Positions 12,399 to 43,175 of a DNA stretch of 55,556 bases are shown here, piece after piece. The stretch lies in IMG/VR virus record IMGVR_UViG_3300020043_002100, positions 1 to 55,556 of that record; one strand, 5' to 3'. The notes beneath the pieces were generated by a model, which had not been told where the DNA came from, did not search any database, and was given only the letters and a program-made list of their open reading frames with translations. This stretch comes from a virus. Lineage: Duplodnaviria; Caudoviricetes. Position 1 is the first letter of the stretch. The number at the start of each line of letters is the position of its first letter. The position numbers and the translations under genes were made by a program.

Positions 12399-14648
12399 GT
12401 GAGCAATGAACTGGCGCTGATCCGTACGCTACAACAAAAAGACTTCTACGATACACACAAAGGCATTCGTTGCCCCGACACACTGTTTAGCAAAGACATT
12501 CGTAAGATTAAGCAGACGCTAGACTACGCAATGAAGACGTTTGAACGTGACGTTACTGTAGCTGAACTTGAGGCGCTATTCTTTGCTCACAACAGTAGCC
12601 TCACCACTGCTACACGATTGGTATATCTTGATCTGTTTTCTAAGCTCAAGAAAGAGCATCCGATGCACGGACAGATCGCAGAAGAAGTTATGTCTAGACT
12701 GTTTCAACAGGTAGTTGGTGAACAGGTTGCATCTATTGGCTTCGATTATGTGAATGGCACAGAGACTAGCCTAGAGCCTCTGCGTCAACTCATTGACTTC
12801 TACGGTGACGACTTCCTGCCAGACATTAAGATTGATTGGGAAGACATGACTATTGATCACCTACTTAAGATGAATGGCCTTGAAGCACAGTGGAAGTTTA
12901 ATATTCCGTCTCTGCGTAGGCGTATTGAGGGTGTTAATGGTGGGCATCTAGTGATGTGCGGTGCTCGTCCTAATGTCGGAAAGTGTCTGCGTAAAGGTAC
13001 TAAAGTTATTATGGCAGATACTACTCTTAAAAAGGTAGAAGACCTCGTTGTAGGAGATATTTTGCATGGGGTAGGTTCATCCAAAGTAGCGGTTACGGCT
13101 CTTGGTAATGGCGTAGAAGAGCATTATAGAATTACTCTACGGGATGGAAGCTTCTTTGAGTGTAATGCTTCTCATATCCTTAGTCTTAAGCGCAGCAAAG
13201 AAGAAGGTAAACATAAGCACGGAGATATCCTAAATGTATCCGTATCCGAATATCTGCAGTGGCCACCTAGCAGAAAGACTCGCTACTCTGCATGGAGACA
13301 ACCTACTGCAGGTACAGAGCAGAAGCTTCCTATGCACCCTTATCTACTTGGTGCATGGTTAGGAGACGGTACCTCTTCAAAGGCGCAGTACACTATCGCA
13401 GAGAAGGAGCTAGCTACAGTAATAGACACTCTGGTACAAAACAACTATAGTAACTTACACCTAAAGGATGCAGAGTATGATAAGCTTGCATGGGATGTAG
13501 TAGGAAAGGGTACTAAATGTGACAGATTTAGCAATAGAAATGGCTTTGTTGAAGCGCTTCGTAGTATGAATGTTATAGATAATAAGCACATCCCAGAACA
13601 ATACTTCGCAGCTACCTTTGACCAGCGTGTTCAGCTTCTGTGTGGTCTACTAGACACAGATGGATACTATAAGAATGGTATCTATGAAATAACGCAGAAG
13701 AATGAAACACTAGCGACTGGTATAATTAGACTGGCGCATTCACTAGGCATGGCAGCTTCTATTAAAATCAGCAATAAAGCTTCTCAAAACGGTACTTGGG
13801 GTGTATACCAACGTATGCGTATTAGCCCCGGAAAAGTAGAAGTTCCGTGTGTACTGACACGTAAGCGTCATGTCCCAAACGCTAAAACTAGGGACTCCTC
13901 AATGCAGTGTTTTACTGTAAAGGCTGTTGGTAAGCAGGAATATTACGGATTTACGTTGGATGGAAACAACCTGTTTATGGTAGAAAATAACATTGTAACC
14001 CATAACACAAGCTTCCACGCTTCACTTATTGCTGCTGCTGGTGGCTTTGCACATCAAGGAGCTAAATGCTTTGTGTTGTGTAACGAAGAAGCTGCACACC
14101 GTGTTGGTGCTAGATATCTTACTGCTGCATCCAACATGACTATGGAAGAAATCAAAGAGAACCCTGCACTAGCAGCATCACGTTATGCCAAGATCAAAGA
14201 CAATGTGCGACTAAAAGATTGCACGGGTCGTGACTTGTCTTGGGTTGAATCTCTGGTTAAGACTGAACGTCCTGACATTCTTGTGCTAGATATGGGTGAC
14301 AAATTTGCAGCACGTAGCAGCGACAAGTCTGATGTGTACTTGAAAGATGCAGCTATCTATGCTAGAAACATTGGCAAGGAGTATGGCTGTGCTATCTTCT
14401 GGATGAGTCAGCTTAGTGCAGATGCGGAAGGCAAAGTCATGGTCAACATGTCTATGATGGAAGGATCAAAGACAGGTAAAGCTGCCGAGTCTGACTTGAT
14501 GCTACTGCTTAGCAAGAACCAAGTAGTTGAAGGCTCAGAAGATGAAGACACGCAGCGTCACATCAACATTGCAAAGAACAAGCTTAGCGGATGGCACGGC
14601 ATTGTACACTGTGAGCTAGACGGAGCACGAGCAATTTATCAAGCATAA
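12399..14648 (+). CDS. SF4/DnaB-like replicative helicase containing an intein
   Basis: Walker A GARPNVGK|T split by intein; ILVLD, MSQLS, IAKNK motifs; mature protein about 408 aa. Confidence 0.93.
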   Translation: MSNELALIRTLQQKDFYDTHKGIRCPDTLFSKDIRKIKQTLDYAMKTFERDVTVAELEALFFAHNSSLTTATRLVYLDLFSKLKKEHPMHGQIAEEVMSRLFQQVVGEQVASIGFDYVNGTETSLEPLRQLIDFYGDDFLPDIKIDWEDMTIDHLLKMNGLEAQWKFNIPSLRRRIEGVNGGHLVMCGARPNVGKCLRKGTKVIMADTTLKKVEDLVVGDILHGVGSSKVAVTALGNGVEEHYRITLRDGSFFECNASHILSLKRSKEEGKHKHGDILNVSVSEYLQWPPSRKTRYSAWRQPTAGTEQKLPMHPYLLGAWLGDGTSSKAQYTIAEKELATVIDTLVQNNYSNLHLKDAEYDKLAWDVVGKGTKCDRFSNRNGFVEALRSMNVIDNKHIPEQYFAATFDQRVQLLCGLLDTDGYYKNGIYEITQKNETLATGIIRLAHSLGMAASIKISNKASQNGTWGVYQRMRISPGKVEVPCVLTRKRHVPNAKTRDSSMQCFTVKAVGKQEYYGFTLDGNNLFMVENNIVTHNTSFHASLIAAAGGFAHQGAKCFVLCNEEAAHRVGARYLTAASNMTMEEIKENPALAASRYAKIKDNVRLKDCTGRDLSWVESLVKTERPDILVLDMGDKFAARSSDKSDVYLKDAAIYARNIGKEYGCAIFWMSQLSADAEGKVMVNMSMMEGSKTGKAAESDLMLLLSKNQVVEGSEDEDTQRHINIAKNKLSGWHGIVHCELDGARAIYQA
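12984..14006 (+). mobile_element. Intein (341 aa) with LAGLIDADG endonuclease in helicase P-loop
   Basis: Starts CLRKGTKV, ends IVTHN|T; LLGAWLGDG and LLCGLLDTDG blocks. Confidence 0.95.
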
Positions 14649-15044: not shown

Positions 15045-18000
15045 ATGACTGAGTATATTCTAGACGTTGAGAATAGTACCACTACACACCACGACAAGCT
15101 GCACCTTGATCCATTTGAAGCAGCTAACACTCTGACTATGGTTGGTATGCAACGTGTAGATGATGCTAGGAAGTTGATGCTTCCATTTGACCACGAAGAA
15201 GCACAAGACACCACAGGTGCTAACCACAAGCGTATTCAAGCTGCACTAGATAAGTGTACACTACTAATTGGTCACAACCTTAACCATGACTTGATGTGGC
15301 TGTGGGAAAGTGGCTTCAAGTATGATGGCCCTGTGTATGACACAATGCTTGGTGAATATCTGCTGCTACGTGGCTTAGACGAACCGCTGTCACTTGAAGC
15401 TTGTGCTATTAGACGTAAGCTACCTGTGCAGAAACAAGATACACTTAAGGCACACTTCAACTCAGGTGGCACCACTAGAAACATGCCACTAACAGAGCTT
15501 ACAGAGTACCTTAGCTTTGACCTTGGCACCACTAGGGAGCTATACCTAGCGCAGCTAAAAGACTACAACAGAGAAGACTCCAAATCACTTATACCAGTGC
15601 GTACTACAACTATGCAAACATGTGTTGTGTTGACACGAATGTATTGTAACGGTTTTGCAGTTGATCGTGAAGCATTGGCAGAAGTTAAGCTTGAGTTTGA
15701 GACAGAGCTAGCACAGATAGAAGAACGTCTGTATAAGCAAGTGCGGATACTTATGGGAGACACTCCTGTTAACCTCAACAGTCCAGAACAAATGTCTCAA
15801 GTTGTGTTTAGTTGTGCATTAAATAACAAGAAGGAGTGGGTGCCACTATTTGAGCACACTAAGACAGATGCTGAGTTTAAGGCTGCAGTTAAAGCTAACA
15901 CAAAGCCTCTGTTTAAGACTGTGGCATATCAGTGTCCTGTGTGTGAGGGCAGGAAGTATGTACACAAGATTAAAGCTAATGGGCAACCATATGCTAAACC
16001 CAATAAGTGCAAAGAGTGTGATGCCAATGGCTTCTTGCTTCGTAACACAAAAGAGTTGGCTGGGCTTCGCTTCTCAGCACCAAACAAAGATTGGGTTTCA
16101 GCTAACGGCTTCTCCACAGCTAAAGATAATCTGTCTACACTAATCGTTGTGGCTAAGCAAAACAAGATGGATGAAGCGGAACAGTTTCTGCTTGATCTGC
16201 AGCGCATGAGTGCTGTGTCTAGCTATCTCTCTAGCTTCGTAGGTGGCATTGAAGCTTACACCAAAGCTGATGGGCTACTACACGTAGGTCTTACACAACA
16301 CATTACTGCAACGGGTCGCTTTAGTGGCCGTAACCCTTAACAATATCAGGGGTTAATAAACTCTGTGAACTCAGGGGAAGCCTAGAACAGGTAATCCTGA
16401 GCCAAGCTTTAGCAGTATACTGCTTTAGAAGGTGCAACGACTATCCAGCAATGGAGTACACTCAAGTGAGTGGAAGCGCAGAGTATCGTGTGTAACATCA
16501 CGGTAATGATATAGTCTCCTCTACATAGGGATATGTAGCAGCTAAGTAGCGGGCTAGAGTTAACGACTCTAGTTGAAGATAAAAGAATATGCAGAACATG
16601 CCACGAGGAGGTACATTTCCAGTCAAGAAAGCGTTTAAGTCGCGCTGGGCTGGTGGTAAAGTTATGGAAGCTGACTTTGCACAGCTAGAGTTTCGTGTTG
16701 CTGCTTATTTGGCACAAGACGAATTGGCTATGGAAGAAGTGCGTACAGGCTTCGACGTTCACAGTTACACAGCAAAGGTTATCACAGATGCAGGAGAAGA
16801 CACTACACGACAAAACGCTAAAGCCCACTGTGTAACTATGGATGCAGAGGCACTAACTAATCGTGGTTGGAAAAAGTACCATGAGCTTAGTGTTGGTGAC
16901 TTGGTGTTGACGTATAACCAAGCTAAAGATGAAAACGAGTGGAAGCCTATTCTGGAGCTTGCACACTTCAATGATGAGGAGGTATGGACATATGGACACG
17001 CACACTGGAAAGTAACAACTACTCCTAATCATAGGTGGTACGGAAAGCGACGCACTGGTAGGGGCGCTAAGCGGTACTTTATAGATGAGGTGTTTACAGC
17101 AGATGCTATCACTACGGAGCATTCAATTACCTGTGCAGCACCTTGCTACTACGAAGGCACACTTCCACTTACAGCTAAAGAAGCTGCTATTCTTGGGTGG
17201 GTACTTTCTGATGGTACTCATAGATGGAGCAAACTTAGTGGCGCTACTTCACAAGGCAGTGACGGTCGTAGGCAAGGTTGCAGCGCATCTATTCTGCAGA
17301 AGAAGCAAAGGTATGTAGATGAACTTAATGTGCTACTTGAAGGTTACTACACAAAGATTAACCTAAGAGAAGACGGATGCTACGAGTGGATGCTTAAAGC
17401 AGAAGCTTTCCGTGATATCTGGAAGAAGGCACAACTTGACACAGAAGAGCCTGACTACGTGAATACGGTTATCAATATGTCTGTTGCAGCTAGAGAAGCT
17501 TTCCTTGACGCTTTCATTAAAGCAGAAGGACACAAGCGAGAACAGGGTCAGTGGCGCATATCGCAAAACCAAGGACCAGAAGCAGAAGCTATTCGTGTAG
17601 CTGCTACATTGTGTGGTTATGATACTCGTGTGTCTACTCGTATTAACTACACAGGAAAGCTGCATGATGTTTATACTTTGCGTACACGTAGACACAATGG
17701 CTGCATTAAGTTTGAAGTGTCAGAAAAGCGTGTAGCTGATGTGTGGTGTCCTCGTACAGAGAATGGTACGTGGGTTATGCGACAAGGCAAAGTCGTAACT
17801 ATTACCGGAAATACGTTCGCACCTCTGTATGGCGCTACGGGCCACGGTAGAACGGCTGCTCAAGCTGCTTACTACCACCACTTCATTGAGAAATACGTTG
17901 GCATTGCTGCGTGGCATAAGAAACTTGGTGATGAAGCTGTTAGGTTTGAAAAGATCACCATTCCAAGTGGTAGACAATATGCTTTCCCCAACACGGTACG

Positions 18001-18340
18001 GCGTAAGAATGGCAGCGTAACAAACTTCACTAGGATCAAGAATTATGGGGTACAAGGATTTGCTACTGGTGATATTGTACCTGCTGTACTTGTAGAAATG
18101 GCTCGAAGACTAAAAGAAGGAAACTACAAATCTTTGATTGTTAACACAGTACACGACTCTATTGTGTTTGACGTTCATCCCGATGAAGTAGAACTTATGA
18201 TTTCCTTCATTGATGATATCAACAATAGCCTAAACGACATCATCTACAAAGCTTATGGTGTGGTATTCAATGTGCCGCTTCTACTTGAAGCTAAGATAGG
18301 TGACAACTGGCTTAACCAGAAAGACGTTAAGAAAATGTGA
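15045..18340 (+). CDS. polA: DNA polymerase A (exons 15045-16337 and 16586-18340; contains an intein and a DnaJ-like Zn finger)
   Basis: Exo I LDVE, GHNL..D, YDTM; spliced TGRFSGRNP|NMQNMP; motif A DFAQLEFR; motif B RQNAKAH|TFAPLYG; motif C VHDS; mature protein about 687 aa. Confidence 0.93.
16338..16585 (+). ncRNA. Group I intron (248 nt, no ORF) in polA
   Basis: 5' site after CCU with P1 AACCCU/GGGGUU; P3 ACUCUGU/GCAGAGU; P4 CUCAGG/CCUGAG; P7 GACUA/UAGUC; terminal G at 16585; removal restores frame and PNxQNxP. Confidence 0.93.
16829..17812 (+). mobile_element. Intein (328 aa) in PolA motif B
   Basis: Starts CVTMDAEALT, ends TITGN|T; ILGWVLSDG and FLDAFIKAEG LAGLIDADG blocks; DVWCP block F. 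Confidence 0.93.
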
Positions 18341-26010: not shown

Positions 26011-26092
26011 GCTGGTGTCGCATAGCGGCGATTGCACTGCTCTTGTAAGGCAGCATAACACACCGTGAGTTCGAGTCTCACCATCAGCACCA
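26011..26092 (+). tRNA. tRNA-Thr(UGU)
   Basis: Acceptor GCTGGTG/CATCAGC-A-CCA; anticodon stem CTGCT/GGCAG with loop CTTGTAA; T arm GTGAG-TTCGAGT-CTCAC. Confidence 0.88.
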
Positions 26093-26093
26093 C

Positions 26094-26186
26094 GTTGGTT
26101 TAGTGTAGTGGTAACACGGCAATCTCTTGTGTCAGCAAGCTTGACCAAAACTGCAGTCCTTGGTTCGATTCCAAGTTCCTTCGCCA
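26094..26186 (+). pseudogene. tRNA-Trp-like RNA with 19-nt anticodon-loop insertion and mismatched acceptor stem
   Basis: Perfect D arm (GTGT/ACAC) and T arm (CTTGG-TTCGATT-CCAAG), G73-CCA; removing 26127-26145 restores loop CTCCAAA. Confidence 0.65.
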
Positions 26187-40188: not shown

Positions 40189-40596
40189 TTAGGCCAGTTG
40201 ATCGCGGTCAACGGAAGCAGCTTGACCAACGGAACCGTTAACGTCAACGATAACAGCCCACACACGACCTGCAATAGTACCCGGAGAACCCGAAATAGTA
40301 GTCACAACGTCAATAGTGTCAGCAGCAGCAACAAAGCCCGGAGTCACACCAGCTTTAACAGTACCAGCAGCGGTGTTGTCAAAGTTCAAGTCATTAGCGA
40401 AGACTGTCGTACCGTCAGTAACGTCCAGCGTGTAAGTAGTAACGTCCGCCACAGCAGTGAAGTTTTCAAAGCCAGCAGCCAGAACAATAGTGCCAGCTGG
40501 AACCGAAACGCCAACAGTCGTACCCGAAGTAGCAGCCAGCGTGACGTACTTTTCAACGACCACTGCGCTATTGCGAAGGGATTGGGAGATAGACAT
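40189..40596 (-). CDS. Probable capsid decoration/minor structural protein
   Basis: 135 aa, beta-rich, directly after MCP with similar codon bias. Confidence 0.6.
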   Translation of the reverse strand: MSISQSLRNSAVVVEKYVTLAATSGTTVGVSVPAGTIVLAAGFENFTAVADVTTYTLDVTDGTTVFANDLNFDNTAAGTVKAGVTPGFVAAADTIDVVTTISGSPGTIAGRVWAVIVDVNGSVGQAASVDRDQLA

Positions 40597-40661: not shown

Positions 40662-42934
40662 TCAGGCGAGGTTGTACTTACCAGTTACGATAGCTTCACC
40701 ACGGAGGATTTTGCGCCCGTAGAGGTGCATACCACGAACAATGTCAGCAAACGAGTCAGGATCACGATACTTTTCAGTTTTGTTGATCTGTTCTGCAGTT
40801 GCAACAGCCGAGTCGTGACCTGCAACGATAACACCGTAGTTGGTGTTCTGGTTAGCAACGCCAGTCGTACCCGGACCAGTACCAGCTTTCGGCAGGTTGT
40901 TCGAAATGTAAACACGGAAGCCGTGGAAGTTGTTCAGAACCAGACCATTACGAAGAGCACCCGAATCACCGTAGTCAGCATTCAGGAAACGCGAATCTTC
41001 ATCACGCAGCACTTCCATCATAACGGGGTCAATAACCAGCCAACGGCCAGCAGTATCCACGTTCTGTTGGTCCAGAAGACGAGCCATACGCGAAACCAGC
41101 ATAGCAGGCGACACATATTCGGTAGGCAGTGCAGTAGCGCCCGGAAGACGAGCAGCAACCGGAATGGAGTGATCACCCGCCGAAGCAGTAGTGATGTTGC
41201 CAAACGAACCCTTTTTCAGCTTCATCGAAGCCAGCAGTTCATCCGTACCAGCACCCGTAGTAGCCACAGTGCCGTTAGTGATATCGTTTACAGTGTCAGC
41301 ATTGACGTGCAGTGCCGATTGCTTGTAGCCCGACAGGTAGCCGAGAACTTCTTGGTCATACTGGTCAGCCAGACGATAAGCAGCGCGATTAGTAGCGAGG
41401 TCCATGAAGTTTACATGCGAGTGTGCTTCTTCAATGTCGTCAACTTTACCTTATCTTCAATGTAGTGCGTTACTTCTACATCCGTTCCTTTAAGAACTGC
41501 TGCAACTTTCATTGCAGAGGAGACTATATCATCACCCTATTGCTAGGGGTTGGGCGCTTCCGCTCACTTGAGCGTATGGACTTCATCTTCTGTTCTAGAA
41601 GGTGTGTCCTAGTCGTTGAACCTTCAAAAGCATTCCTGCTTAAGCTTGGCTGCTGATTATCCTCGACTTTACGTTAGGACTTCCCAGCAATTCACCCAAT
41701 TCTTTAGGTGGGATCACTCCCAAATGCGTCTAGAATTAGTTAAACGCGAAGTAGTTTGACTTATCAATGACCAGCGAGAAGTCTTCATCGTTCAGGTCTT
41801 GGGCTTGAATTTGCGTCCCACGTGCGTACGAGGACACCGAAATTTCCAGATGTTAACGCTTGGGAGTTTAACCCTTGCTTCTATAGGTTTGTTTCCCTAT
41901 AGGTCAGACTATATCTTCACCCATATCTAGGGTGTCCTGCGCTCGTGGAGTACAAATACCTACATGTTCAATCTTGTAGTGCATACAAGGAACAATGTAA
42001 GGAGAAACAACTGACACAAAGACTTTAGAGTCTGCTGTGTTGAAGCGTAGAGAATACTTGTCGCTGCGTTTGTCTACGTCAAATTTAGCATCAATGCCAT
42101 ACTTGCTCATAAACCAATTCTTAAGTATTTCAGCTTCTTCTTTTGAACAATATGTTGCTATACGAGTCATACACCCCGTTGGTTTTCCAGTAAGCCTACT
42201 CTTGCATACTGTGCCACTTCCGTCATCCATGTACCACAAAGCTAGACTATGATCAGTAAGATAACTGAGTAGCTTCTCTGTGTAAACTTTCTTTCCTTCT
42301 GGGTACAGCACTCTGTGCATTTGCCGGAAGTAAGCGTAATTTTTGTACATCTGATGATTTGTGTACGTTTTACCTGTCGTCTTATTGGTGCTCTGGTACG
42401 TATACACGCTAGGCTCTTTTCCACCTATTGTGCTGTGTAACAGCTTAGCTTTATGCTTGAGATAGTCAAGTTGCGCTGGGCCGTGTCCGATAACCATACG
42501 AGCAGTGGTTTTAGCTTGCGTCTTTTGAAGATAGATGCCGCCATCACCGATAGCAAGGCCATACAAGAGGCCTCTTTTAGTCTTGTCCAAGTTGTTTCCT
42601 TTCGTTAGCTACTAGAGCCACTACTTCTAAGTATTTATATTCTAGTCGTTGAACCTTCCACTTTCGTGGCTTGGCTGCTGATTCCCATCTCAGGGTTCCA
42701 GCAATTCACAGGAAGTTTATTCGTAGCTTACGCTGCGAAGGCCCAAAATTTAGGCTCTTTGATGATACGAACAGTGTCGCCTTGCGAAGAGATTTCACCA
42801 AAGTAATCACTGTTGGTGATAGCTTGTGCAACCGTCTTTTTGCGGAATGCAAGTTGAACTTTTTTCGAGTAAATTACCGAGCTAAAGTTACCATTAGCCA
42901 GATTGCCCCAACCGGGTGCAGCTTGAAATGCCAT
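40662..42934 (-). CDS. Major capsid protein, three exons (42934-42752, 41846-41743, 41448-40662), 357 aa
   Basis: Spliced junctions read GDTVRIIKEP|EISVSSYARG and SNYFAF|KVDDIEEAHS; exons total 1074 nt in frame; C-terminal DSFADIVRGMHLYGRKILR. Confidence 0.92.
41449..41742 (-). ncRNA. Group I intron 2 of capsid gene (294 nt, no ORF)
   Basis: P1 GCGUU|UA with UAGACGC (U-G at the splice site); P3 UUGGGU/GCCCAA; P7 GACUA/UAGUC; terminal G at 41449. Confidence 0.9.
41847..42751 (-). ncRNA. Group I intron 1 of capsid gene (905 nt) carrying a homing endonuclease ORF
   Basis: 5' site after CCU pairing with GGGC; P3 UCCUGU/GCAGGA; P4-P5 UUGCUG...CAGCAG; P7 GACUA/UAGUC; terminal G at 41847. Confidence 0.9.
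41904..42590 (-). CDS. Intron-encoded double-motif LAGLIDADG homing endonuclease
   Basis: LLYGLAIGDGGI and LALWYMDDGSG motifs (I-SceI-like family); TTG start after AAAGGA; stop overlaps P7'. Confidence 0.88.
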   Translation of the reverse strand: MDKTKRGLLYGLAIGDGGIYLQKTQAKTTARMVIGHGPAQLDYLKHKAKLLHSTIGGKEPSVYTYQSTNKTTGKTYTNHQMYKNYAYFRQMHRVLYPEGKKVYTEKLLSYLTDHSLALWYMDDGSGTVCKSRLTGKPTGCMTRIATYCSKEEAEILKNWFMSKYGIDAKFDVDKRSDKYSLRFNTADSKVFVSVVSPYIVPCMHYKIEHVGICTPRAQDTLDMGEDIV

Positions 42935-43175
42935 TGTAGTTTCTCCTATAGATGGCTATATTTGTCATGTTGCCACGGTGCTCTCATAGCACTCTTTGTA
43001 GCAATGAACGAATATCACATCAGTTAAGAGGCCATTACGTTATGGGTGTCGCCTAGAGGATCAGTCTATTTGAGGCCAACGGTATTGGGTAGTCTCACAT
43101 ACGTTATTCGTTGAAAAGTGGTAACTACTGAGGTTGGCTTTCGCGGCTCAATAGTTACTTGTTGTTGTGCGTGTA

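What the first reader, a model, noticed from the sequence alone, without database searches (positions are those of the whole stretch)
40662..42934. Major capsid gene split by two group I introns flanking a 104-nt micro-exon
Seen in sequence: the MCP appears as fragments in the ORF track. Two full group I cores (41847-42751 and 41449-41742) have U-G P1 splice sites and terminal Gs. Removing them gives an in-frame 357-aa MCP with junctions IKEP|EISV and YFAF|KVDD. Established: most characterised phage group I introns lie in DNA-metabolism genes (td, nrd, pol). Inference: the most abundant virion protein needs double splicing. Exon 2 is 104 nt, so skipping it would frameshift, and splicing efficiency could limit capsid output.
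Basis: partly seen in the sequence, partly recalled or inferred. Interest (0 to 1): 0.85.

Follow-up and report, generated by a model that had tools for sequence, protein, structure and literature searches.

The report
Phage capsid gene with two introns
The coat-protein gene of this aquatic phage is cut into three pieces by two self-splicing-type RNA introns, a real but already known kind of arrangement that turns out to be common in this group of phages.

Summary
On the minus strand, the major capsid (coat) gene of an HMO-2011-type podophage is split into three exons: 42934-42752, 41846-41743 (104 nt) and 41448-40662.

- **Intron 2** (41449-41742, 294 nt, no ORF) scores 89.7 bits on Rfam RF00028.
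- **Intron 1** (41847-42751, 905 nt) scores 40.6 bits, below the gathering score of 50, with E 5.6e-7 for the whole window. It carries an intact LAGLIDADG homing-endonuclease ORF. Introns homologous to it at the same site in other contigs score 60-63 bits.
- Both introns have a U·G pair at the 5' splice site, a terminal G and a P10 pairing.
- Splicing in silico gives 357 aa. The product aligns across both junctions without a gap to the uninterrupted coat proteins of CRP-13, CRP-1, HMO-2011 and 68 metagenomic alleles.
- Metagenome contigs carry both introns, intron 2 only, or neither, with exact boundaries.

Splicing itself was not shown, because no usable RNA data were found. The kind is known: a capsid-gene intron in mycobacteriophage LittleE, and three introns in one Twort gene. 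In this phage group the coat gene's first 100 codons hold at least four insertion sites, and one distant relative carries three introns. I call it a new member of a known kind, of moderate interest.

The parts
42752..42934 (-). Coat (major capsid) gene exon 1, 183 nt, 61 codons, ATG at 42934, ends ...IKEP with U42752 as the last base
   Evidence: ORF list. PHROG 267 major head protein, E 2.4e-4 for this piece alone. Colinear with uninterrupted homologues. All 5 listed differences in other runs fall at codon position 3.
41847..42751 (-). Group I intron 1, 905 nt. P1 has U42752·G. An in-frame stop lies 7 codons into the intron. Terminal G at 41847.
   Evidence: RF00028 40.6 bits, below the gathering score of 50; E 1.6e-8 local and 5.6e-7 for the whole window. 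P1 pairs 8 of 9 and P10 7 of 7. Exactly absent from contigs of runs X5 and X16 and from 70 uninterrupted IMG/VR alleles. 69% identical over 877 nt to the intron at the same site in L015, which scores 63.2 bits.
41904..42590 (-). LAGLIDADG homing-endonuclease ORF inside intron 1, 228 aa, TTG start preceded by AGGAA. Its last 8 codons and stop overlap the P8 3' strand, J8/7 and P7 3' strand.
   Evidence: Pfam LAGLIDADG_2, E 1.1e-26, 94.2 bits, cut-off 25, profile positions 3-168 of 168. PHROG 11023, E 8.4e-20. Position relative to the core read from the Rfam alignment and the sequence.
41743..41846 (-). Coat gene exon 2, 104 nt (34 codons plus 2 nt), EISVSSYARGTQ...NYFA(F)
   Evidence: PHROG 267, E 4.2e-3, profile 83-115, directly after exon 1's 38-78. 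Colinear with homologues. 65% of differences to 68 intron-less alleles lie at codon position 3.
41449..41742 (-). Group I intron 2, 294 nt, no ORF. P1 has U41743·G. In-frame stop at the third codon. Two predicted hairpins lie 3' of the Rfam match, before the terminal G at 41449.
   Evidence: RF00028 89.7 bits, E 1.1e-21. P1 pairs 7 of 7 and P10 6 of 7; tail hairpins. Exactly absent from contigs of X8 and X16 and from intron-less alleles. Its 5' and 3' parts are 87% and 81% identical to the ORF-carrying intron at the same site in L021.
40662..41448 (-). Coat gene exon 3, 787 nt (1 nt plus 261 codons plus stop TGA at 40664-40662)
   Evidence: PHROG 267, E 5.1e-42. 80-88% identical to 598 IMG/VR relatives, of which 80 were fetched. 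Colinear.

Best explanation
The window is an HMO-2011-type podophage genome, nearest to roseophages CRP-13 and CRP-1. Its single coat-protein gene carries two mobile group I introns within its first 96 codons.

**Likely mechanism (inferred).**

1. The gene is transcribed as one pre-mRNA.
2. Ribosomes entering either intron stop within 2-7 codons.
3. Each intron folds into the P3-P9 core.
4. An external guanosine attacks after the U of the U·G pair in P1.
5. P10 aligns the 3' exon.
6. The terminal G is released and the exons are joined, giving an mRNA for a 357-aa coat protein.

**Mobility.** Intron 1 encodes its own LAGLIDADG endonuclease, which would cut intron-less coat alleles of co-infecting relatives at the conserved IIKEP/E site and copy the intron in (homing). 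Intron 2 has no ORF. It is the ORF-less relative of an ORF-carrying intron found at the same site in another contig. It either persists passively or travels by co-conversion with intron 1, only 104 nt away.

**Shown versus inferred.** Shown here are the ribozyme-type cores, the splice-site rules, exact colinearity with intron-less alleles, presence/absence polymorphism, and purifying selection on all three exons. Actual splicing, endonuclease activity and any effect on capsid yield are inferred.
For: - **Covariance model.** Intron 2 scores 89.7 bits; intron 1 scores 40.6 bits.
- **Splice-site rules.** U·G pair at the 5' splice site, terminal G, and P10 pairing 7 of 7 and 6 of 7.
- **Colinearity.** The spliced protein has no gap at either junction and is 79.6% identical to CRP-13, 77.2% to CRP-1, 72.2% to a Manatee Spring phage and 70.3% to HMO-2011. 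Nucleotide-exact junctions were seen against 8 intron-less genes.
- **IMG/VR census.** Of 80 loci, 70 are uninterrupted, 4 are cut off by a contig end, and 6 are interrupted. Among the interrupted ones, L015 uses the intron 1 site and L021 the intron 2 site. All 6 have RF00028 matches at E <= 0.001.
- **Independent runs.** A 5886-nt contig in X4, from another study, has both introns with 126 differences. X5 lacks exactly intron 1 but keeps intron 2. X8 lacks both.
- **Selection.** The share of differences at codon position 3 against 68 intron-less alleles is 0.63, 0.65 and 0.67 for exons 1-3. Of the 38 exon differences listed, 34 are at position 3.
- **Endonuclease.** The ORF is intact: Pfam 94.2 bits over the full profile.
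- **Precedent.** Efficient splicing of a capsid-gene intron has been shown (PMC3706429, passages).
Against: - No RNA evidence. No listed holder of the stretch is on record as RNA.
- The one contig from a run guessed to be RNA (X16) joins the exons exactly, but it cannot be told apart from an intron-less DNA allele. It has 12 other letters in 101 of exon 2.
- Intron 1 is below Rfam's gathering score (40.6 versus 50).
- P1 of intron 1 has one A·C mismatch, and P10 of intron 2 has one mismatch.
- The genome is a metagenome assembly with no cultured host, so the viability of this exact genotype is not shown.
Confidence: 0.87

Rival explanations
1. One or both inserts are splicing-dead remnants. 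The coat gene would then be a pseudogene in a defective or satellite-dependent genome.
For: Intron 1 scores below the Rfam gathering score. Splicing was not observed. Intron 2 has lost its ORF compared with L021, a step in the usual decay cycle of homing introns (general knowledge, recalled).
Against: Core helices and the conserved J8/7-P7 sequence are intact in both introns. P1 and P10 fit the exact junctions. All three exons show position-3-biased divergence in their own frames. The same two-intron gene occurs, with 126 differences over about 2 kb, in a run of a different study, so the genotype has persisted and diverged.
Confidence: 0.06
2. The introns do splice, but not on their own. Intron 1 would depend on its LAGLIDADG protein acting as a maturase, or on host factors or translation, so capsid output would be coupled to endonuclease expression.
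For: The last 8 codons of the endonuclease ORF overlap P8', J8/7 and P7', so translation and folding of the core must interfere with each other. LAGLIDADG maturases are known from organelle introns (recalled, not checked here).
Against: Nothing in the sequence requires a helper. ORF-less intron 2 and the polymerase-gene intron have the same kind of core with no protein of their own. Characterised phage group I introns are described as self-splicing (review PMC3984707, passages).
Confidence: 0.05
3. Assembly artefact: intron-like sequences from other phages were wrongly joined into the coat gene.
For: The window appears to be a metagenome assembly, and related intron cores occur in many phages.
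Against: Three runs hold 0.91-0.92 of the sampled words, though these may be the source sample. An independent study's 5886-nt contig spans exon 3 to beyond exon 1 with both introns. Homologous introns sit at exactly the same two sites in unrelated IMG/VR contigs.
Confidence: 0.02

Closest known systems
Group I intron in the major capsid gene of mycobacteriophage LittleE (Pope et al. 2013, PMC3706429; passages read)
   Same: An intron in the 5' part of a major capsid gene, with U at the exon end and G at the intron end. It carries a LAGLIDADG-like homing-endonuclease ORF, is absent from close relatives, and has to be spliced very efficiently for a highly expressed late protein.
   Different: LittleE has one intron, with its endonuclease ORF on the opposite strand, in a siphovirus of a high-GC Gram-positive host. 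Its splicing was proven by RT-PCR and N-terminal sequencing. Here there are two introns 104 nt apart, the ORF is on the same strand in P8, the phage is a podovirus from freshwater metagenomes, and splicing is not proven.
Staphylococcus phage Twort orf142 with three group I introns (Landthaler & Shub 1999). Only the title was seen, in the reference lists; the paper is not held.
   Same: Several group I introns in one phage gene with short internal exons.
   Different: Different phage family and host gene. I could not read the paper, so exon sizes and gene function there are not compared.
Phage introns in other essential late genes: terL of Shewanella phage KASIA (PMC8541194), Pectobacterium phage CB7 (PMC7344957), Jug phages (PMC12880540) and roseophage DSS3_VP1 (PMC8323127)
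   Same: Group I introns, mostly carrying homing endonucleases, inserted at conserved sites of packaging or structural genes. Splicing was confirmed by RT-PCR or metatranscriptome reads in KASIA, CB7 and the Jug phages.
   Different: Terminase rather than coat protein. Mostly HNH rather than LAGLIDADG endonucleases.
Uninterrupted coat genes of HMO-2011, CRP-1, CRP-13 and relatives
   Same: Same protein, 70-80% identical, with the same neighbouring genes (a scaffold-like gene upstream, an adaptor or tail gene downstream).
   Different: The 4 coat genes fetched and aligned (CRP-13, the Manatee Spring phage, HMO-2011 and CRP-1) are uninterrupted. The other named relatives listed were not examined for introns.

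Membership tests
Group I catalytic intron (Rfam RF00028), intron 2 | Conserved P1-P9 core recognised by the covariance model at or above the gathering score | tested here: met
   89.7 bits against a gathering score of 50, E 1.1e-21, model positions 1-253 of 253.
Group I catalytic intron (Rfam RF00028), intron 1 | Conserved P1-P9 core recognised by the covariance model at or above the gathering score | tested here: inconclusive
   40.6 bits, below 50, with E 1.6e-8 local and 5.6e-7 for the whole window, full model span, and a 687-nt ORF in P8. Homologous introns at the same site score 63.2 (L015) and 60.9 and 60.6 (L085, L087).
Group I catalytic intron, both introns | U·G wobble pair at the 5' splice site within P1 | tested here: met
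   U42752·G and U41743·G sit at the model's conserved U-G column. Pairing re-checked by script: 8 of 9 and 7 of 7.
Group I catalytic intron, both introns | Terminal guanosine, and P10 pairing of the guide sequence with the 3' exon | tested here: met
   The introns end ...CAUCUG and ...AUAAGG. P10 pairs 7 of 7 for intron 1 and 6 of 7 for intron 2.
Group I catalytic intron, both introns | Precise absence from homologous alleles, with exons colinear and in frame after removal | tested here: met
   and 32 (skips of exactly 905 nt and of 294 nt net).
Group I catalytic intron, both introns | Guanosine-dependent self-splicing of the transcript | not testable with these tools
   No RNA holder listed. 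This needs an in vitro or in vivo assay.
LAGLIDADG homing endonuclease (Pfam PF03161 LAGLIDADG_2) | Full-length match above the curated cut-off, with two LAGLIDADG-type motifs | tested here: met
   94.2 bits against a cut-off of 25, profile 3-168 of 168. The motifs LLYGLAIGDGG and LALWYMDDGSG can be read in the translation. That these are the catalytic motifs is recalled, not tested.
LAGLIDADG homing endonuclease | Cleaves the intron-less target (exon 1 / exon 2 junction) and promotes homing | not testable with these tools
   Only indirect evidence: presence/absence polymorphism at the exact site. Relatives of the ORF lie inside coat genes in 29 of 50 IMG/VR loci.
HMO-2011-type / P22-like coat protein | Full-length colinear similarity to the HMO-2011 coat protein and to major-head-protein profiles | tested here: met
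   246 of 350 aligned residues identical to the HMO-2011 coat protein. PHROG 267, E 5.1e-42 for exon 3, with exons 1 and 2 hitting successive profile positions. Pfam P22_CoatProtein (20.7 bits) and Phage_capsid_2 (23.3 bits) fall below their cut-offs for the exon 3 piece alone.
Intein (considered for the inserts) | Insert read in frame with the host protein, without stops | tested here: not met
   Read-through from exon 1 stops after 7 codons, and from exon 2 at the third codon.

The most novel reading that the evidence does not exclude
The first 100 or so codons of the HMO-2011-type coat gene may be a long-standing battleground of competing intron and homing-endonuclease lineages.

- There are at least four insertion sites within 170 nt, plus a ribozyme-like element at the stop codon.
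- A gene can hold up to three endonuclease-carrying introns.
- Endonuclease relatives lie inside coat genes that are only 24-60% identical.

On this reading the endonucleases act as weapons that cut the coat gene of co-infecting intron-less relatives, as shown for PhiPA3 gp210 against PhiKZ (PMC11620839, abstract). ORF-less introns such as intron 2 would survive because they destroy a target site or hitch-hike by co-conversion. This would make intron content a fitness determinant in one of the most abundant groups of aquatic phages.
Probability: 0.25. Interest if true: 0.6.

Novelty: new member of a known kind. Interest (0 to 1): 0.4.

Why it matters
- **Annotation.** Gene callers report this coat gene as fragments of 68, 33 and 247 aa. 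Studies that use the coat gene as a marker, and primers designed on it, will miss or mis-size intron-bearing HMO-2011-type phages.
- **Biology.** A virion's most abundant protein depends here on two ribozyme reactions in one transcript. Skipping the 104-nt exon would give an immediate stop.
- **Ecology.** Four allele states coexist in metagenomes: both introns, intron 2 only, neither, and single introns at other sites. This gives a natural system for studying homing and intron turnover in uncultured, very abundant phages.
- **Limits.** None of this is new in principle. It is a clear, well-populated example.

Tried and rejected
**RNA evidence**
- The look-up of sequencing runs: no RNA holder listed.
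- Read laying: run X16, whose RNA label is a guess, holds a 315-nt contig that joins exon 1 to exon 2 exactly and exon 2 to exon 3. I do not count this as splicing evidence. Intron-less DNA alleles exist (X8, IMG/VR), and the contig differs from the window at 12 of 101 exon 2 positions.

No earlier notes were seen.
- Structure prediction and the large protein searches were not run on the spliced protein. It is a joined sequence, not the window's own letter for letter, and family membership was already clear from named phage genomes.
- Pfam on exons 1 and 2 alone gave no family.
- RAGATH-7 at 41778-42006 (13.9 bits against 111.8, E 3.7) is chance.

**Literature**
- Six searches were made.
- Of the 7 papers holding both 'HMO-2011' and 'intron', I read passages of one (PMC10580990), which does not describe an intron in the coat gene. 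For the other six I saw only titles and abstract starts, and none of those mentions one.
- No listed paper holds both 'HMO-2011-type' and 'homing endonuclease'.
- These searches cover only the held open-access library, and supplements were closed. I therefore say 'not found in print by these searches', not 'unpublished'.
- Papers read in passages that did not bear on capsid introns: PMC10580990, PMC6669764, PMC9769974, PMC8557907, PMC3888941.
- Landthaler & Shub 1999 could not be read (time-out, not held). It is cited by title only.

**Alternatives rejected**
- Alternative splice sites for intron 2 (5' after U41744 with 3' after G41450) would give Cys instead of the conserved Phe. They also do not sit on the model's U·G column.
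- Exact exon boundaries of the three-intron gene in L089 could not be settled. One U/G-rule solution was found, and it is not checked against a close intron-less allele.
Full report
**What is in the sequence.** Between 40662 and 42934 the minus strand shows three open pieces: 68 aa (42934-42728), 33 aa (41837-41736) and 247 aa (41405-40662). A 228-aa ORF (42590-41904) lies between the first two. PHROG 267 'major head protein' matches all three pieces at successive profile positions: 38-78, 83-115, and 185-322 for the best stretch. The E-values are 2.4e-4, 4.2e-3 and 5.1e-42. The 228-aa ORF is a full-length LAGLIDADG_2 homing endonuclease (Pfam E 1.1e-26, 94.2 bits).

**The introns.**
- Rfam RF00028 matches 41500-41752(-) at 89.7 bits.
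- In a local scan it also matches 41885-42762(-) at 40.6 bits, E 1.6e-8. Over the whole window the E-value is 5.6e-7.
- The second match is below the family's gathering score of 50. The alignment has to loop out the 687-nt ORF in P8.
- A script confirmed P1 (8 of 9 and 7 of 7 pairs), a terminal G in each intron (41847 and 41449), and P10 pairing between the guide sequence and the first seven bases of the next exon (7 of 7 and 6 of 7).
- The Rfam match to intron 2 stops at 41500. The remaining 51 nt fold into two hairpins before the terminal G.
- Ribosomes reading out of exon 1 meet a stop after 7 codons. Out of exon 2 they meet one at the third codon.
- The last eight codons of the endonuclease ORF overlap the P8 3' strand, J8/7 and the P7 3' strand.

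**Colinearity.** blastn places the region next to HMO-2011-type podophages. In each of them the exons lie contiguously in a coat gene of about 1.07 kb (annotation).

Joining 42934-42752, 41846-41743 and 41448-40662 by coordinates gives 1074 nt and 357 aa. The product aligns to CRP-13 (284 of 357 identical), CRP-1 (275 of 356), a Manatee Spring phage (257 of 356) and HMO-2011 (246 of 350). There is no gap at either junction. At nucleotide level the two junctions match seven intron-less IMG/VR alleles and CRP-13 base for base in register.

Joining exon 1 directly to exon 3 gives 970 nt and CCU-UAA, an immediate stop.

**Population evidence.** A scan of IMG/VR found 598 relatives of the exon 3 protein, of which 80 were fetched. 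By tblastn with the spliced protein:
- 70 are uninterrupted.
- 4 are cut by the contig end (L020, L031, L033, L056).
- 6 are interrupted.

Exact sites of the interrupted loci, each obeying U before and G at the end:

| Site (nt) | Codon | Loci |
|---|---|---|
| 130/131 | 44 | L012, L013, L018 |
| 183/184 | 61/62 | L015, the same site as intron 1 |
| 287/288 | 96 | L021, the same site as intron 2 |
| 300/301 | 100/101 | L024 |

All six have RF00028 matches at E <= 0.001. Four of the six loci have a match at or above 50 bits, though in L018 that match is the element at the stop codon, not the interrupting intron.

The L015 intron is 69% identical to intron 1 over 877 nt. The L021 intron carries a 198-aa ORF and matches intron 2 at its 5' (87%) and 3' (81%) ends, so intron 2 is the ORF-less form of that lineage.

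**Other sequencing runs**:
- A 5886-nt contig of run X4, from another study, spans 40950-43000 with both introns and 126 differences.
- X5 has a contig that lacks exactly intron 1 but keeps the start of intron 2.
- X8 has a contig lacking both.
- Of the 40 best-supported differences listed, 38 lie in exons, and 34 of these are at codon position 3 in the predicted frames.

Against 68 uninterrupted alleles, the position-3 share of differences is 0.63, 0.65 and 0.67 for exons 1, 2 and 3. L051 and L081 were left out of this count because their matches start at residue 2 or 3. The short middle exon is therefore under the same coding constraint as the rest of the gene.

**How widespread the intron lineage is.**
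- A scan with the endonuclease protein returned 50 IMG/VR loci.
- 29 of them contain a coat-gene match. In 17 of those, coat sequence lies on both sides of the endonuclease: 5 around codon 62 and 12 at codon 43/44. The coat proteins are 24-85% identical to this one.
- The other 21 loci showed no coat match at E 1e-3.
- Of 12 loci scanned with Rfam, 10 have RF00028 matches, 7 of them at or above 50 bits. L107 and L110 have none.
- L089, and the overlapping arrangement in L090, is a distant relative (41% identity). Its coat gene holds three RF00028 matches and three LAGLIDADG ORFs, with internal exons of roughly 24 and 29 nt. Their exact boundaries are not settled.
- In the 80+50 loci fetched, no contig other than the window's own lineage (X4) showed introns at both of the window's two sites.

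**What is known already.**
- Pope et al. 2013 (PMC3706429, passages read) showed by RT-PCR and N-terminal sequencing that a probable group I intron in the major capsid gene of mycobacteriophage LittleE is spliced. That intron has a LAGLIDADG-like ORF. The paper cites a capsid-gene intron in lactococcal phage Tuc2009.
- Several introns in one phage gene, and exon skipping, are in the title of Landthaler & Shub 1999. I saw it only in reference lists. The paper is not held.
- Introns in terminase genes were confirmed by RT-PCR or metatranscriptomes in KASIA, CB7 and the Jug phages.
- The review PMC3984707 (passages) gives the usual reading of an in-frame stop just inside the intron.
- I found no paper describing introns in an HMO-2011-type coat gene. 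These cover the open-access library only, and supplements were closed.

**Verdict.** The interpretation, two group I introns that must both be removed to make the coat protein, is supported by structure, comparative and population evidence. Direct proof of splicing is still missing. The arrangement is a new member of a known kind.

The more interesting result is the context. The first 100 codons of this coat gene are an intron hotspot across an abundant group of aquatic phages. This genome also carries an intron in its DNA polymerase gene, an intein in its helicase, and an unidentified 326-residue insertion in its DNA polymerase.

Noticed in passing
window 16338-16585 (+): A third group I intron (RF00028 81.5 bits) splits the family A DNA polymerase gene. 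Joining 16337 to 16586 gives ...GRFSGRNP|NMQNMPRGG..., identical to the uninterrupted CRP-207 polymerase. Rfam's own P1 placement, starting at 16294, lies in the exon. The pairing AACCCU / GGGGUU around 16337 fits better (read). Its core and 3' tail resemble coat intron 2.
   Followed up: yes
window about 12984-13955 (+), inside ORF 12399-14648: The DnaB-like helicase carries a 324-residue insertion (residues 196-519) that is absent from the CRP-207 helicase. It has Hom_end_hint (E 6.5e-14), Hom_end and LAGLIDADG_3 domains. This is an intein with a homing endonuclease.
   Followed up: partly
window about 16829-17806 (+), inside ORF 16589-18340: The second polymerase exon has a 326-residue insertion (spliced residues 527-852) that is absent from CRP-207. 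Pfam gives no hit at E 1e-3. It may be a second intein. Together with the helicase intein this makes five inserted elements in one 55.6-kb genome.
   Followed up: partly
L089 280-3981 (also L090): A distant coat gene (41% identical) is interrupted by three group I introns (RF00028 40.3, 42.9 and 64.7 bits). There are three LAGLIDADG ORFs of 238-241 aa in this stretch, and internal exons of roughly 24 and 29 nt. Exact boundaries are not settled.
   Followed up: partly
L018 4457-4704 and L021 3257-3482: A group I ribozyme-like element (60.1 and 55.1 bits) begins right at the coat gene's stop codon and is followed by a small ORF rich in Cys pairs. The two copies are 86% identical to each other over 324 nt. 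What it interrupts, if anything, is unknown. The window has nothing there.
   Followed up: partly
L012/L013/L018 (coat nt 130/131) and L024 (coat nt 300/301): Two further intron insertion sites in the same coat gene, each with a LAGLIDADG ORF. The L024 site is only 13 nt downstream of the window's intron 2 site.
   Followed up: yes
window 26011-26089 and 26094-26183 (+): Two adjacent tRNA matches. The second scores only 30.4 bits and has a 23-nt insertion in the anticodon arm of the alignment. It could be an interrupted or aberrant tRNA.
   Followed up: no
window 40189-40596 (-): A 135-aa ORF directly downstream of the coat gene has no Pfam or PHROG hit, yet it is conserved at 79% in L015. It may be a head decoration or accessory protein.
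   Followed up: no
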